IMG/VR virus record: IMGVR_UViG_3300017914_000750
Location: 29,737 to 93,736 of that record
Strand: one strand, 5' to 3'
Length of the DNA stretch: 64,000 nucleotides
From: a virus
Taxonomy: Duplodnaviria; Caudoviricetes
Shown: piece by piece, positions 32,770-36,769 of the stretch
Layout: every line of letters starts with the position of its first letter
Numbering within the stretch: the first letter of the stretch is position 1
Made by a program: the position numbers and the translations under genes
Notes under the pieces: model-generated
Seen by the model: the letters and a program-made list of their open reading frames with translations, nothing else
What the model was told of the DNA's origin: nothing
Database searches by the model: none

Positions 32770-33576
32770 TTAACTACCAATCGGAGTTGCAGGCCACTGT
32801 TGGTTTACATCTCCATCCCATCTTGCTTCAGGTGTTCTACCCTGTCTTGCATATGTAAATGGTGACCTATGGTCGTATGTAAATGGATTTTGACCAGTTC
32901 TCTGATAAGTTGAAGGTGACCTATAATCATATGTAAACGGTGTTTGACCCGTTCTCTGATATGTTGAAGGAGACCTATAATCATATGTGAAAGGTGTCTG
33001 ACCAGTTCTTTGATAAGTCGAAGGCGACTGATAATCGTAAGTAAATGGTGTTTGACCAGTTCTTTGATATGTTGAAGGAGACCTATGGTCATATGTAAAT
33101 GGAACCTGTTGGTCTCTTATATTTGGTTGTTGTGCTGACCTAATGTTAGGTTCTTGAGCATTTGCAATATAAGGACTAGGTTGTTGTATTGACCTAATAT
33201 TAGGTTCCTGTGCATTCACTGGATTTCTATAGGTGAATGGTGACCTATGAGAGTAAGTATTAGGTTGTCTCGCAGGTGCTTGATATGTAAATGGTGACCT
33301 ATAGTTATAAGTAAACGGGTTCCTTGCTGGTGCTTGATATGTGAAAGGAGACCTGTAATGATATGTAAACGGGTTCCTTGCTGGTGCTTGATATGTAAAC
33401 GGTGACCTATAGTGATAAGTAAACGGGTTCCTTGCTGGTGCCTGATATGTAAATGGCACCCTATGATGATAAGTAAATGGGTTCCTAGCATCGTTCTCAT
33501 ATATGAAAGGTTGCCTAAAAGAAAAGGGAACTGGCTGTCTAGCAGAAGAAATAAATGGTGATTGATATGTTGGCAT
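32770..33576 (-). CDS. Pro/Tyr/Gln-rich repeat protein (mirror partner of 33591..35003)
   Basis: 27 Pro-initiated units of 8/10/12 aa; GAGGAG SD. Confidence 0.85.
   Translation of the reverse strand: MPTYQSPFISSARQPVPFSFRQPFIYENDARNPFTYHHRVPFTYQAPARNPFTYHYRSPFTYQAPARNPFTYHYRSPFTYQAPARNPFTYNYRSPFTYQAPARQPNTYSHRSPFTYRNPVNAQEPNIRSIQQPSPYIANAQEPNIRSAQQPNIRDQQVPFTYDHRSPSTYQRTGQTPFTYDYQSPSTYQRTGQTPFTYDYRSPSTYQRTGQTPFTYDYRSPSTYQRTGQNPFTYDHRSPFTYARQGRTPEARWDGDVNQQWPATPIGS
32833..33558 (-). repeat. coding tandem repeats (54-nt period blocks)
   Basis: QAPARNPFTYHYRSPFTY and QRTGQTPFTYDYRSPSTY arrays. Confidence 0.9.
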
Positions 33577-33590
33577 TCTCCTCTATCCTC

Positions 33591-35003
33591 CTACTTCTGT
33601 TGTCTGTTATGAGCAAGTATATCATGTGCAAAATAGTTTTGATTTCCACTTACTTTTGTTAAATGGTATACTTTATGTAGACCTTCTAGTTTTTCTATAC
33701 AGTCGACTGCATGTTTAGGTGTGTTTTGTAAAATACATGATATTGTATCAATGATTTTATCACCTTCTTCAACTACACCTGAGATTTCTCCACCCCATGC
33801 TGTTCCTTCTGCAACTTCTTGTTCCCAATCTTCCATGCTTATAACACACCAACCTTTTCCGTCAACTTTGATTGGGTGTCCACCTGTTAGTTTTACACCT
33901 CTACCACCGAAAGATATTTCGTATAATTCACATTCTCTTGGAACCATTAGTTCTTCTACTTCACCTACCATGATTGTTAAATTCTCATCTGCAGTCATAA
34001 CCATATCACCAACTTCAACTTTTTGAATTGGCATATATGAACCGTCTTCCATCCAAATCATAGTATCTTCTGCGAAGCAACCACCACCTCGACCACCGCC
34101 TGGGAAGAAGACTGGTTGTCTTGCTTGGAAGGTGAATGGGTTTTGGAATGCACCAGTATTCGGTTGCTGAAGGTTTGCAATATAGGTAAATGGTTGCTGA
34201 GCACTTCTAATATTCGGTTGTTGAATATTCGCAGGATATGTAAATGGTTGTCTTGCACTTCTAATATTCGGTTGTTGAATATTTGCTGGGTAAGTAAACG
34301 GTTGCTGAGCATTTCTGATATTCGGTTGTTGAATATTTGCTGGGTAAGTAAACGGTTGCTGAGCATTTCTGATATTCGGTTGTTGAATATTAGCAGGATA
34401 TGTAAAAGGAACCTGACTATTTCTAATATTAGGTTCTTGTGCGCTTACTGGATTCTGATATGTAAACGGTGACCTATGGTCATATGTAAAAGGTGACCTT
34501 GCAATAGCTTGATAAGTTGAAGGAGACCTATAATTATATGTGAAAGGTGACCTATGAGAGTAAGTATTAGGCTGTCTTGCCTGTCTTATATTCGGTTCCT
34601 GTGCGTTTGCAATGTAAGGATAAGGTTGTTGTGCTGACCTTATGTTTGGTTCCTGTGCGTTTGCAATGTAAGGATAAGGTTGTTGTGCATTCCTGATATT
34701 AGGCTCTTGAGCATTTGCAATATAAGGGTAAGGCTGCTGAGCACTACGAATATTGGGTTCTTGAGCATTTGCAATATAAGGATAAGGTTGTTGTGCTGAC
34801 CTTATGTTTGGTTCTTGAGCATTTGCAATATAAGGATATGGAACCTGAGTTAATTCTTGACCTGAAGCGTTATTCCACCCTGAAGGTGTTTTAATATAAA
34901 TTTGGTCAACTGCTTTCCAGTTGTTAGGCCCTGTCTTTACCCAAGCTCCTTGGGTTTTGTTCCACCCAGTAGGGGTCTTAACCTTTTGATTACCTGATGC
35001 CAT
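33591..35003 (-). CDS. fibre-associated repeat protein with C-terminal Hint domain
   Basis: Trp-rich N-terminal cap (GW...W...IYIKTPSGW), 27 repeat units, GGGRGGG linker, Hint domain. Confidence 0.85.
   Translation of the reverse strand: MASGNQKVKTPTGWNKTQGAWVKTGPNNWKAVDQIYIKTPSGWNNASGQELTQVPYPYIANAQEPNIRSAQQPYPYIANAQEPNIRSAQQPYPYIANAQEPNIRNAQQPYPYIANAQEPNIRSAQQPYPYIANAQEPNIRQARQPNTYSHRSPFTYNYRSPSTYQAIARSPFTYDHRSPFTYQNPVSAQEPNIRNSQVPFTYPANIQQPNIRNAQQPFTYPANIQQPNIRNAQQPFTYPANIQQPNIRSARQPFTYPANIQQPNIRSAQQPFTYIANLQQPNTGAFQNPFTFQARQPVFFPGGGRGGGCFAEDTMIWMEDGSYMPIQKVEVGDMVMTADENLTIMVGEVEELMVPRECELYEISFGGRGVKLTGGHPIKVDGKGWCVISMEDWEQEVAEGTAWGGEISGVVEEGDKIIDTISCILQNTPKHAVDCIEKLEGLHKVYHLTKVSGNQNYFAHDILAHNRQQK
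33606..34079 (-). other. Hint (intein-like) autoprocessing domain
   Basis: Block A CFAEDT, IQKVEVGDMV, block B TGGHP, block F/G VYHL...NYFAHDILAHN; followed by RQQK and stop. Confidence 0.9.
34116..34841 (-). repeat. coding tandem repeats (54-nt period blocks)
   Basis: PYPYIANAQEPNIRSAQQ x5 and PFTYPANIQQPNIRNAQQ x4-5. Confidence 0.9.
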
Positions 35004-35038: not shown

Positions 35039-36769
35039 TTAAGAGTAAAGAATCCATAAATCCCCAACTGCACCGTCTGAACCTGTAGGTGCTGAAGTTG
35101 ATTGGTATACATTTCTTGCTGTTCCGCCTGAATTAGTTGCATTTGTTATTGTTAATGCACCAGTATTTACTGCACTTGGTGTAATAGTCAAGTTACCTGT
35201 TGAAGCACCAGTGAATGAACCTGTTCCAAAAGTAACTGCGTCTGCACTTTCGTCCCAACCGATAAACACATTGTCTGAACTTCCTCTTTCAATTACGAAA
35301 CCAGCGTCATTTGAAGGTGAACCTGAAGTTCCAGTTCCTAACTCAATCAATGCATCATCGATTGTTGTATTTGTAGAAGATACAGTTGTTGTTGAACCGT
35401 TAACTGTAAGGTTACCTGAAAGTGTTAAGTTTGCAAACTGAACATTACTGTTTGTTGCAACTGCCTGACCGATACTAAACTCACCACCTGAATATGATAC
35501 ACCAGTTCCAGCACTTAAATGAGCTCTTACTTCTGCTGAATTTGGGCCGACATATGTAATAACACCACTTGAATTATCATATGCAAGTGAACCGTCTCCA
35601 CCTGAATCTGTTACTGAGATAGCACCTCTTGCATCTGAGTCTCCATAAGCTGCAGAACCAGCAAGTGTTAATGTTCCTGCTGAATCGTCATAAGTTGCAG
35701 TGATGTTTGAACCACCAACTATAAGAGCTGCAACTCTATCGTCAACTCTTTCGTTTGTGAAGTATAGATTACTTGAACCCTCTGAAAGAGCATCTGTATC
35801 TGCAAGAACAGTTCCACCTAATGCAGTAGAAGTTCCACCGATTGTGATTGAACTATTTGATAATGCACTGTTAGGTATTGAACCTGCTAATTTACTTGCA
35901 ACGATTGAACCTGCTAACATGTCGTTAGTGATACCACCTGATTTTACTTGAAGTGAATCTGAATCTATTTCGATTGAACTGTCATCTACTTGAACATTAA
36001 GGGTTACTGCACCTGTAGTTCCACCACCTGTTAAACCTGACCCAGCAGTAACTCCTGTTATGTCTGCTTGGTTAGTATTTGCAATGGTTAGTGTTCCAGC
36101 TGCATCGTCATATGTTTTTGAGATACCTGTTCCAGCAACTATAAGTGAAGCAACTCTATCGTCTACTCTTTCTGAAGTATGGAATAAATTTGTTGAACCT
36201 TCTGTAATGTCATCTGAATCACCTGATAGTTCTGATAATGCGTCTTTACTTGCAACTTGAGAATCTACATATGCTTTAACTGATTGTTGTGTTGGAATCT
36301 GTGTAGCAGAGTTCGAAGCCATATTGTCTTCGTCTAATATTGCAGTTCCACTTACACCAGTATTTAAAACTGCACTTGTAAGTGTTTTGTTTGTTAATGT
36401 TTGTGAACCTGTTAATGTTGCAACAACTGAAGTATCTACTTCAATATCGTCTGAGTTTACTGTAATACCTGTTCCTGAACCAATATTAAGTGTTGCATCA
36501 CCTGAAGTTGCAGTTCCAGTCAAACCAGCACCAGCATTAACTCCTGTAATATCACCTACATTACCAGTGATTGTAAGAGTTCCAGCAGAATCATTATAAG
36601 ATAATGATACCCCTGAACCTGCTTGGAGTAAAGTTCCCGCTATGTGGTCGTCAATAGTTTCTAAAGCATTTGTTCCGATTGAAGCTGCAGTTAAGTCTCC
36701 TGAGCTATCAATAACTTCTGTTGTTCCTACAGTAAGACCATTCTTGATTATAAAATTTTTCGATGTCAT
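35039..36769 (-). CDS. tail fibre protein
   Basis: G/S/T-rich with EGSxNLYFTNERVDDRV modules; C-terminal SAP...GDLW motif. Confidence 0.75.
   Translation of the reverse strand: MTSKNFIIKNGLTVGTTEVIDSSGDLTAASIGTNALETIDDHIAGTLLQAGSGVSLSYNDSAGTLTITGNVGDITGVNAGAGLTGTATSGDATLNIGSGTGITVNSDDIEVDTSVVATLTGSQTLTNKTLTSAVLNTGVSGTAILDEDNMASNSATQIPTQQSVKAYVDSQVASKDALSELSGDSDDITEGSTNLFHTSERVDDRVASLIVAGTGISKTYDDAAGTLTIANTNQADITGVTAGSGLTGGGTTGAVTLNVQVDDSSIEIDSDSLQVKSGGITNDMLAGSIVASKLAGSIPNSALSNSSITIGGTSTALGGTVLADTDALSEGSSNLYFTNERVDDRVAALIVGGSNITATYDDSAGTLTLAGSAAYGDSDARGAISVTDSGGDGSLAYDNSSGVITYVGPNSAEVRAHLSAGTGVSYSGGEFSIGQAVATNSNVQFANLTLSGNLTVNGSTTTVSSTNTTIDDALIELGTGTSGSPSNDAGFVIERGSSDNVFIGWDESADAVTFGTGSFTGASTGNLTITPSAVNTGALTITNATNSGGTARNVYQSTSAPTGSDGAVGDLWILYS

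What the first reader, a model, noticed from the sequence alone, without database searches (positions are those of the whole stretch)
33577..34115. Hint domain placed exactly at the apex of the split zipper, after a GGGRGGG linker
Seen: the ladder ends ...PVFFPGGGRGGG|CFAEDT and is followed by a 158-aa Hint domain ending HN|RQQK-stop. The partner gene starts 14 nt later with its own SD. Known: canonical splicing needs Cys/Ser/Thr after the terminal Asn. Here it is Arg, which fits Hedgehog/BIL-type cleavage or thioester transfer rather than cis-splicing, and no homing endonuclease is present. Inference: the Gly-thioester at the fibre tip could be hydrolysed (a removable folding cap), attached to a small molecule or host target, or ligated to the partner's N-terminus, which the mirror geometry places alongside it. 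The last option would rebuild a continuous hairpin from two genes.
Basis: partly seen in the sequence, partly recalled or inferred. Interest (0 to 1): 0.85.

Follow-up and report, generated by a model that had tools for sequence, protein, structure and literature searches.

The report
Optional self-excising Hint at fibre tip
One of two paired fibre proteins of an uncultured marine T4-like phage carries a genuine intein-like (Hint) self-processing domain four residues before its end; related phages have the same protein without it, so it most likely cuts itself out and does not weld the two fibre proteins together.

Summary
Gene 33591..35003 (minus strand, 470 aa) ends its repeat ladder in GGGRGGG. 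A 158-aa Hint domain follows (C309..N466), then RQQK and stop. The partner gene starts 14 nt later.

The domain is real: AlphaFold pLDDT is 90, and the best structural and profile matches are BIL domains (6y75, 2lwy) and mini-inteins. G308, C309, F310, H376, H465 and N466 are invariant in 41 homologues.

Across 23 loci the two genes' repeat lengths co-vary (r = 0.999). Their unit types are complementary only when read antiparallel, so the Hint does sit at the predicted tip.

Several lineages have the same gene pair with no Hint. There the protein runs straight from poly-Gly into a short basic tail, like a spliced product. On a neighbour-gene tree these alleles are nested among Hint-bearing ones. 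Other lineages carry an unrelated tip domain.

The Hint is therefore an optional, vertically inherited A-type-BIL-like insert that most likely excises itself. Ligation to the partner is not needed and is unsupported.

A new detail: all 51 distinct tails contain a lysine, which hints at BUBL-like isopeptide chemistry.

This scan reached the same reading on other genomes (e1-5790585, e1-5790597). No processing has been shown experimentally.

The parts
33591..35003 (-). g1: 470-aa fibre chain precursor, made of N-cap, repeat ladder, poly-Gly, Hint and tail
   Evidence: ORF. More than 400 metagenomic homologues. Conserved position in 23 loci.
34854..35003 (-). N-cap (residues 1-50). It is Lys-rich (6 K) and is the best-conserved part of g1.
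   Evidence: Consensus; Lys counts.
34101..34853 (-). Repeat ladder (residues 51-301), built of roughly 18-aa PNIR / YIAN / PFTY units. It has no Lys and 18 Arg.
34080..34100 (-). Gly-rich end of the N-extein (GGGRGGG, residues 302-308). G308 is the residue before the scissile bond.
   Evidence: G308 is invariant in 41 homologues. Poly-Gly is also present in Hint-less alleles.
33606..34079 (-). Hint domain, C309 to N466 (158 aa). It has Cys1, block B T373-x-x-H376 and terminal H465-N466.
33594..33605 (-). C-terminal tail RQQK (residues 467-470), which is the C-extein. It carries the family-wide conserved Lys.
   Evidence: All 51 distinct family tails contain Lys, and 48 have it in the last three residues. 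Hint-less alleles have a comparable tail directly after poly-Gly.
33577..33590 (-). 14-nt spacer with Shine-Dalgarno-like GAGGA/GGAG between the g1 stop and the g2 start
   Evidence: In other loci the spacing is 0-41 nt.
32770..33576 (-). g2: 268-aa partner chain. It has no Lys. Its C-terminal end is conserved (RWDG...WP motif) and its N-terminal end is variable.
   Evidence: Its length tracks the g1 repeat length with r = 0.999.

Best explanation
The Hint is an optional, vertically inherited insert of the A-type BIL (bacterial intein-like) kind. It lies between the Gly-rich end of fibre chain g1 and that chain's own short basic tail.

Proposed steps after translation (all inferred):
1. Cys309, helped by the T373-x-x-H376 motif, converts the Gly308-Cys309 peptide bond into a thioester.
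2. Asn466, helped by His465, cyclises and cuts the bond before Arg467.
3. The thioester is resolved in one of three ways: by water (cleavage only; about 35% of my total odds), by the tail's conserved Lys side chain as in Tetrahymena BIL2 (about 20-25%), or by the tail's freed alpha-amine as in the C. thermocellum BIL (about 15%).

In every case the Hint leaves. Mature g1 ends in poly-Gly, with or without the tail, which is what Hint-less relatives encode directly. g1 and g2 then form a two-chain antiparallel fibre whose open tip is made of g1's Gly-rich end and g2's N-terminus.

What is shown: the fold, the conserved catalytic residues, the insertion-site logic, the optional distribution, and the co-inheritance with the locus.

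What is inferred: every chemical step.

What is open: whether the domain gives the phage any benefit (a transient cap or product heterogeneity) or merely persists because it is harmless.
For: Fold and family:
- The AlphaFold model has pLDDT 90.4.
- Top Foldseek hits are 6y75/6tmm BIL2, 2lwy BIL and mini-inteins.
- Family profile against the PDB: BIL2 7e-24, 2lwy 4e-20, DnaB inteins 1e-13, Hedgehog 1e-5.

Catalytic residues:
- G308, C309, F310, H376, H465 and N466 are invariant and T373 is above 90% in 41 homologues whose mean column identity is 36%.
- The residue after Asn is F, G, M, L, I, Y, R or K, once S, and never C or T, in 51 distinct tails.

Insertion-site logic:
- Hint-less g1 alleles (L089, L091, L093, L094, L097, L098, and L107-L109 with swapped gene order) run from poly-Gly straight into a 7-15-aa tail.
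- Hint-less pairs obey the same g1/g2 length rule.

Inheritance:
- Hint-less alleles form two clades nested among Hint-bearing ones on the neighbouring glycosyltransferase tree.
- The Hint tree shows the same three major groups as that tree. Together these indicate vertical descent with at least two precise losses.

Precedents from the literature:
- BIL domains lack the +1 nucleophile and mostly cleave (PMC7664689).
- A-type BILs keep His-Asn (PMC7765530).
- BIL2 forms a Lys isopeptide to the C-terminus of its N-flank without ATP (PMC8616854).
Against: - No experiment or proteome shows any processing.
- Curated Pfam and NCBIfam models do not reach threshold on this protein.
- The tails of closely related alleles diverge fast apart from the Lys. 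This weakens the argument that the tail is a conserved structural part of the mature fibre, and so weakens the case for splicing over plain cleavage.
- The Lys contrast between Hint-bearing and Hint-less tails rests on few independent lineages: Lys is missing in one of three Hint-less lineages.
- If the domain were simply dispensable, a stop codon at its start would remove it. Its long retention with intact catalytic residues may mean it has a function I have not identified.
Confidence: 0.68

Rival explanations
1. Trans-ligation. The Gly308 thioester is attacked by the alpha-amine of the partner g2 after removal of its Met, producing one continuous hairpin chain of about 575 aa.
For: - The antiparallel register puts the g2 N-terminus next to the g1 Gly-rich end.
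- The repeat regions are almost Lys-free, so near the tip the only amines are the g2 N-terminus and the tail Lys.
- The second residue of g2 is always small (P, A, T, S or V), so the Met is probably removed.
- Single-chain relatives with the g2-type C-terminus exist (P0065, P0313).
Against: - Hint-less two-gene pairs with identical geometry exist in at least three lineages and cannot ligate.
- Other lineages carry a non-Hint globular domain of about 140 aa at the same place.
- The same g2 N-terminal styles occur with and without the Hint.
- The g2 N-terminus is the variable end of g2.
- No N-terminal Cys is present, and Ser or Thr is only occasional.
- Neither search listed a form with g1, Hint and g2 in one frame; only the best 120 and 150 hits are listed.
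Confidence: 0.05
2. Conjugation device. The thioester is passed to an amine or hydroxyl of something else, such as a Lys of another virion protein (for example the Lys-rich N-cap of a neighbouring fibre) or a host-surface molecule. This would be Hedgehog-like or BUBL-like chemistry.
For: - The invariant G|CF junction is the same as in Hedgehog.
- The best solved relative, BIL2, conjugates its N-flank to Lys of other proteins.
- The Gly-Gly end resembles ubiquitin-like C-termini.
- The same Gly-Hint-Lys module ends many unrelated phage proteins.
Against: - Hint-less alleles lack any such activation yet keep the same locus.
- No sterol-recognition-like or adaptor region follows the Hint; only 4-29 residues do.
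- No candidate acceptor is conserved with the Hint.
Confidence: 0.1
3. Permanent tip domain. The Hint is not processed and stays as a globular knob at the fibre tip, with its catalytic residues conserved for structural reasons.
For: - Some lineages have an unrelated globular domain at the same position, so a knob at the tip is tolerated.
- Some BIL domains process slowly.
Against: - The residues that are invariant are exactly the nucleophile, the block B His and the terminal His-Asn.
- A tail of at least 4 residues containing Lys is always kept.
- The surface of the domain diverges freely, at 27-60% identity.
Confidence: 0.08

Closest known systems
A-type bacterial intein-like (BIL) domains (Amitai 2003 and Dassa 2004 as cited in PMC7765530 and PMC7664689; C. 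thermocellum BIL, PDB 2lwy)
   Same: - Hint fold, Cys1, block B TxxH and C-terminal His-Asn.
- No nucleophile after the Asn.
- Sits in a variable region of a non-conserved surface protein.
- 2lwy is the best single-sequence PDB hit and scores 4e-20 with the family profile.
   Different: - Encoded by a phage and placed 4-29 residues before the end of a virion fibre chain.
- The flanks are invariant: Gly at -1 after a poly-Gly run, and a Lys in the tail.
- Insert-free alleles exist at the same site.
- Activity is untested.
BIL2 of the Tetrahymena thermophila BUBL1 locus (PDB 6y75/6tmm; PMC8616854)
   Same: - Best structural and profile match.
- BUBL-like proteins are among the sequence relatives (P0166).
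- The N-flank ends in Gly and there is a Lys downstream.
- BIL2 joins its N-flank's C-terminus to a Lys side chain without ATP.
   Different: - The flanks here are a repeat fibre and a 4-residue tail, not ubiquitin-like domains.
- Sequence identity is about 23%.
- No evidence exists that an isopeptide forms.
Class 1 mini-inteins of phages and cyanobacteria (gp41-1, DnaB, DnaE)
   Same: - Same fold, blocks A, B, F and G, and size (about 150 aa, no endonuclease).
- Insert-free alleles with contiguous flanks.
- Co-inheritance with the host gene.
   Different: - The defining +1 Cys/Ser/Thr is absent throughout the family.
- The host site is a variable fibre tip and not a conserved enzyme motif.
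Hedgehog C-terminal autoprocessing (Hog) domain
   Same: - G|CF cleavage junction.
- The Hint lies at the C-terminal end of the precursor.
- Thioester chemistry at a terminal Gly.
   Different: - No sterol-recognition region.
- Keeps the terminal His-Asn that Hedgehog does not use.
- Much weaker similarity (E 1e-5).
Self-cleaving intramolecular chaperone domains of phage tail spikes and fibres (Peptidase_S74)
   Same: Works alike in outline: a C-terminal domain of a fibre precursor that removes itself.
   Different: Unrelated fold and chemistry (Ser-Lys dyad). No S74 match appeared in the Pfam scan.

Membership tests
HINT superfamily | Horseshoe-like all-beta Hint fold | tested here: met
   AlphaFold pLDDT 90.4. 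Foldseek probability 1.0 and target-normalised TM 0.8-0.87 to BIL and mini-intein structures.
HINT superfamily | N-terminal nucleophile (Cys/Ser) and block B Thr-x-x-His | tested here: met
   C309 and H376 are invariant and T373 is above 90% in 41 homologues. Both align to the same motifs of 2lwy.
Class 1 intein | Cys, Ser or Thr immediately after the terminal Asn | tested here: not met
   It is Arg in the window. Among 51 distinct family tails there is no Cys or Thr and one Ser.
Class 1 intein | Terminal His-Asn | tested here: met
   H465 and N466 are invariant.
Class 1 intein | Insert-free alleles in which the flanks are contiguous | tested here: met
   Hint-less g1 alleles run from poly-Gly straight into the tail.
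Class 1 intein | Demonstrated excision with ligation of the flanks | not testable with these tools
   Needs expression and mass spectrometry.
A-type BIL domain | Hint with Cys1 and C-terminal His-Asn but no +1 nucleophile | tested here: met
   Definition as summarised in PMC7765530 and PMC7664689.
A-type BIL domain | Closer in sequence to BIL domains than to inteins or Hog domains | tested here: met
   Profile E-values: BIL2 7e-24, 2lwy 4e-20, best intein 4.5e-13, Hedgehog 1.5e-5. The nearest non-family relatives are HN-K...CF Hint arrays.
A-type BIL domain | Located in variable regions of non-conserved, usually extracellular, proteins | tested here: met
   It lies at the variable tip end of a phage fibre chain. 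The g2 N-terminus and the tails are the fastest-changing parts.
Hedgehog Hog domain | Sterol-recognition region after the Hint module | tested here: not met
   Only 4 residues follow the Hint; across the family it is 4-29.
BUBL-type BIL (isopeptide-forming) | Ubiquitin-like N-flank ending in Gly and a Lys acceptor in the C-flank | tested here: inconclusive
   The N-flank ends in Gly-Gly-Gly but is a repeat fibre, not a ubiquitin fold. A Lys is present in 51 of 51 tails. Whether it acts as the acceptor is untested.
Peptidase_S74 intramolecular chaperone | Match to the S74 family | tested here: not met
   No such hit in Pfam.

The most novel reading that the evidence does not exclude
The poly-Gly / Hint / Lys arrangement is a phage-encoded, ATP-independent ligation device. 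The Hint makes a Gly thioester at the fibre tip. The thioester is captured by a Lys side chain, either the conserved tail Lys (giving a branched, isopeptide-capped fibre end) or a Lys of another protein. This would be a viral counterpart of BUBL-type 'ubiquitination by protein splicing', and the same module would do this on many unrelated phage tail proteins.
Probability: 0.2. Interest if true: 0.8.

Novelty: new variant of a known kind. Interest (0 to 1): 0.55.

Why it matters
BIL-type Hint domains have been studied in a handful of bacterial and ciliate proteins. Here the same chemistry appears as a recurrent, conserved module at the ends of phage fibre and tail proteins, in a family with hundreds of metagenomic members and natural insert-free controls.

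That makes two open questions directly testable. The first is how a Hint domain without a downstream nucleophile resolves its thioester in nature: by hydrolysis, through the alpha-amine, or through a Lys isopeptide. The second is whether such domains serve the virus or merely persist.

A natural Hint that accepts Gly at -1 and needs only a four-residue C-flank is also of practical interest for making protein C-terminal thioesters.

The finding also removes an attractive but unsupported idea, that two fibre genes are welded into one chain.

Tried and rejected
Searches that found nothing useful:
- DNA and protein searches of deposited phage genomes found no relative of g1, its N-cap or g2. The only hit to the Hint was an unrelated Vibrio phage intein. 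No cultured phage or host can therefore be named.
- Pfam and NCBIfam on the window protein gave only sub-threshold Hint or intein hits.
- The alternative tip domains of L101, L111, P0044 and P0058 have no Pfam family.
- Literature searches for Hint or BIL domains on phage fibres found only ordinary inteins in terminase and RNR genes.
- The last homologue search, with g2 as query, was swamped by other repeat proteins and returned no true g2 orthologues. I took those from the loci instead.

Ideas rejected:
- Readthrough or frameshift joining g1 and g2. The frame offset differs between loci: +2 in the window and +1 in L001.
- P0125, which looked like a Hint with a long C-flank. It is a frame-shifted read of the partner gene.

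Weak result:
- The mirror test on single-chain relatives gave only moderate correlations (r -0.5 to -0.76). The apex it found in P0065 lies some 20 residues from that protein's Gly-rich segment, so I use it only as weak support.

- Model coordinates are not returned, so I could not measure the distance from the tail Lys to Cys309.

Full report
**What is there**

All genes in this part of the window are on the minus strand.
- ORF 33591..35003 (g1) encodes 470 residues.
- Residues 1-50 form a Lys-rich N-cap.
- Residues 51-301 are about 250 residues of roughly 18-aa repeat units of three kinds, recognisable by PNIR, YIAN and PFTY.
- The segment GGGRGGG follows (302-308).
- Then comes a 158-residue domain from C309 to N466, then RQQK and a TAG stop.
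- Fourteen bases later, after GAGGA/GGAG, ORF 32770..33576 (g2, 268 aa) starts.

The window belongs to a 93.7-kb record of an uncultured marine T4-like myovirus.
- Its baseplate wedge protein is only 35-37% identical to those of pelagimyophages and cyanomyophages.
- No deposited phage genome has a relative of g1 or g2.

**The Hint domain is real and looks active**

On the window protein alone, Pfam and NCBIfam give several Hint or intein hits, all below their curated thresholds. The best solved-structure hit by sequence is the C. thermocellum BIL domain 2lwy. In that alignment its Thr-x-x-His lines up with T373-G-G-H376.

A profile built from 61 relatives removes the doubt:

| Match | E-value |
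|---|---|
| BIL2 of the Tetrahymena BUBL1 locus (6tmm/6y75) | 7e-24 |
| 2lwy | 4e-20 |
| DnaB mini-inteins | 1e-13 |
| Hedgehog | 1e-5 |

- AlphaFold gives pLDDT 90.4.
- Foldseek ranks BIL2, 2lwy and mini-inteins first, with probability 1.0.
- In 41 family members with 36% mean column identity, the invariant positions are G308, C309, F310, I326, H376, P377, W385, H465 and N466. T373 is nearly invariant.

Selection is therefore holding exactly the residues needed for an N-S acyl shift and for Asn cyclisation.

**The flanks**

About 60 of the 120 best g1 homologues carry the module. Counting the loci as well gives 51 distinct tails after His-Asn.
- The residue after Asn is F, G, M, L, I, Y, R or K, and once S. 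It is never C or T, so canonical class 1 splicing is excluded for the whole family.
- Tails are 4 to 29 residues long.
- Every tail contains a Lys, and 48 have it among the last three residues.
- From Lys frequencies of 6.5-10%, 23-30 tails should lack Lys.

Outside the family, the nearest relatives of the domain are proteins with one to nine tandem Hint copies. These are joined by one to five residues, with the junction reading HN-K-(G/C)-CF. Lys follows Asn in 83 of 152 such domains, and Gly is the commonest residue before Cys.

The same poly-Gly / Hint / short-tail module ends many unrelated viral proteins.

**The two genes pair, and the Hint is at the tip**

Two scans of viral contigs gave 23 loci with the conserved gene order: upstream fibre gene, g1, g2, glycosyltransferase fusion, small protein, 2OG oxygenase.

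| Test | Result |
|---|---|
| g1 repeat length (residue 51 to end of poly-Gly) vs g2 length | r = 0.999, slope 1.01, g1 repeat length 172-480 residues |
| Unit-type complementarity (PNIR/YIAN opposite PFTY), g2 reversed | r = -0.72 to -0.96 at offsets -2 to +1, in 11 of 11 pairs |
| Same test, g2 read forward (parallel) | weak or absent, except in the symmetric window pair |

- I chose the unit classes after seeing the data, but the parallel control uses the same classes.
- The conserved ends are the g1 N-cap and the g2 C-terminus. The variable ends are the g1 tail and the g2 N-terminus.

The Hint therefore does sit where the register puts the far, variable tip. This rests on sequence statistics only. 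The complex predictor was closed.

**The decisive comparison: Hint-less alleles**

Six loci (L089, L091, L093, L094, L097, L098) have g1 and g2 with the same length rule but no Hint. In them g1 runs from an aromatic patch and a poly-Gly run straight into a 7-11-residue tail that starts with Phe and ends in Lys or Arg.
- L107-L109 are also Hint-less and have the gene order swapped.
- L101 and L111 carry an unrelated domain of about 140 residues with no Pfam family at the same place, again with a length-matched g2.

Hint-bearing alleles read: aromatic patch, poly-Gly, Hint, tail. The tail often also starts with Phe or continues the Gly run.
- The Hint is therefore an insert between the fibre's Gly-rich end and its own tail.
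- The Hint-less proteins look like the spliced product.

The trees point to vertical inheritance.
- On a maximum-likelihood tree of the neighbouring glycosyltransferase gene, Hint-less alleles form two well-supported clades nested among Hint-bearing ones. This needs two changes, against a shuffled mean of 5.3.
- The tree of the Hint domains recovers the same three major groups.
- The simplest history is an old, vertically inherited insert with at least two precise losses.
- One pair (L087/L088) has near-identical neighbours but divergent Hints, so occasional exchange is possible.

**Mechanism**

The following steps are inferred, not shown.
1. Cys309 attacks the Gly308 carbonyl with help from T373/H376, giving a thioester.
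2. Asn466 cyclises with help from His465.
3. The Hint leaves.

How the thioester is resolved is open.
- BIL domains mostly give cleaved products (PMC7664689).
- BIL2 forms an isopeptide between a Lys side chain and the C-terminus of its N-flank without ATP (PMC8616854).

The universal tail Lys favours a Lys-dependent step. So does its absence in one Hint-less lineage, whose tails end in Arg. However, that contrast rests on few independent lineages.

The Lys keeps its distance from the C-terminus, not from the Asn, which fits a flexible tail but proves nothing.

Tails of close relatives diverge quickly apart from the Lys. I therefore cannot say that the tail is a conserved part of the mature fibre.

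My odds are as follows.

| Outcome | Odds |
|---|---|
| Self-excision of some kind | about 0.7 |
| of which hydrolysis | about 0.35 |
| of which Lys isopeptide | about 0.2 |
| of which alpha-amine ligation | about 0.15 |
| Transfer to another target | about 0.1 |
| No processing | about 0.08 |
| Ligation to g2 | about 0.05 |

**Against ligation to the partner**

- Two-chain fibres without any Hint exist in at least three lineages.
- The same g2 N-terminal styles (Met followed by P, A, T, S or V) occur with and without the Hint.
- The g2 N-terminus is the variable end.
- Neither the word-indexed search nor the exhaustive HMMER search listed a form with g1, Hint and g2 in one frame. Only the best 120 and 150 hits are listed.

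Some points keep the idea chemically conceivable.
- The repeat regions are almost Lys-free (0-2 Lys against 9-55 Arg) while the N-cap has 5-6 Lys. The g2 alpha-amine and the tail Lys are thus the only amines near the tip.
- Single-chain relatives with the g2-type end exist (P0065, P0313).

**Comparison with known systems and novelty**

The domain meets every tested criterion of an A-type BIL domain. It fails the defining +1 nucleophile of class 1 inteins and lacks the sterol-recognition region of Hedgehog.

What is new is the setting.
- It is a phage virion fibre tip.
- The C-flank is four residues long.
- The flanks are an invariant Gly and a Lys.
- Natural insert-free alleles exist.
- It belongs to a much larger set of Gly-Hint-Lys modules and tandem Hint arrays in viral contigs.

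I found no paper on this in the library searched. UniProt auto-annotation does label some uncultured-phage proteins as Hint-containing.

This scan has already reported the same reading on other genomes (e1-5790585, e1-5790597, and related notes). I saw those notes after my own analysis, and they agree with it.

**Limits**

There is no experimental evidence of processing, no structure of the fibre, no host and no read-level data.

Noticed in passing
window 32770-33576 and 34101-34853; loci L001-L011: The repeat regions of g1 and g2 are almost free of Lys (0-2, rarely up to 6) but rich in Arg (9-55). The N-cap and the Hint in the same gene are Lys-rich. This points to strong selection against Lys in the ladder, whatever the reason.
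   Followed up: partly
L107:1265-2738, L109:3642-5064: In one Hint-less lineage the gene order is swapped: the g2-type gene comes first, directly followed by the g1-type gene.
   Followed up: no
L101:3501-5660, L111:3014-4831: Some g1 orthologues end in an unrelated Tyr/Gly/Ser-rich domain of about 140 residues with no Pfam family, in place of poly-Gly plus Hint. They still have a length-matched g2. The tip position therefore accepts different modules.
   Followed up: partly
L015-L027, L035 and others; proteins P0121-P0131: Viral contigs and metagenomes hold many proteins made of two to nine tandem Hint copies joined by 1-5 residues (HN-K-(G/C)-CF), often at the end of proteins of 750-920 residues. 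Their purpose is unknown.
   Followed up: partly
L087 and L088: The neighbouring glycosyltransferase genes are nearly identical, but the two Hint domains sit on long, separate branches. This suggests occasional exchange of the Hint or of the fibre tip between close relatives.
   Followed up: no
window 35039-36769 and the upstream genes of all loci: The fibre gene just upstream of g1 always ends in the same motif (STSAP..DGAVGD.W.LYS), and the g1 N-cap is the best-conserved part of g1. This would fit a docking pair.
   Followed up: no
PDB 8w20 chain A: A solved 1368-residue protein named only 'Intein C-terminal splicing domain-containing protein' matches the family profile at E 2e-17 over residues 1083-1223. 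It may be a solved example of a near-C-terminal Hint on a large protein.
   Followed up: no
proteins P0192, P0206, P0250, P0258, P0193: Other protein families end in the same poly-Gly / Hint / short Lys-containing tail. They include one that looks like a lambda-type tail-tip assembly protein, and a family of about 330 residues with a globular N-domain.
   Followed up: no
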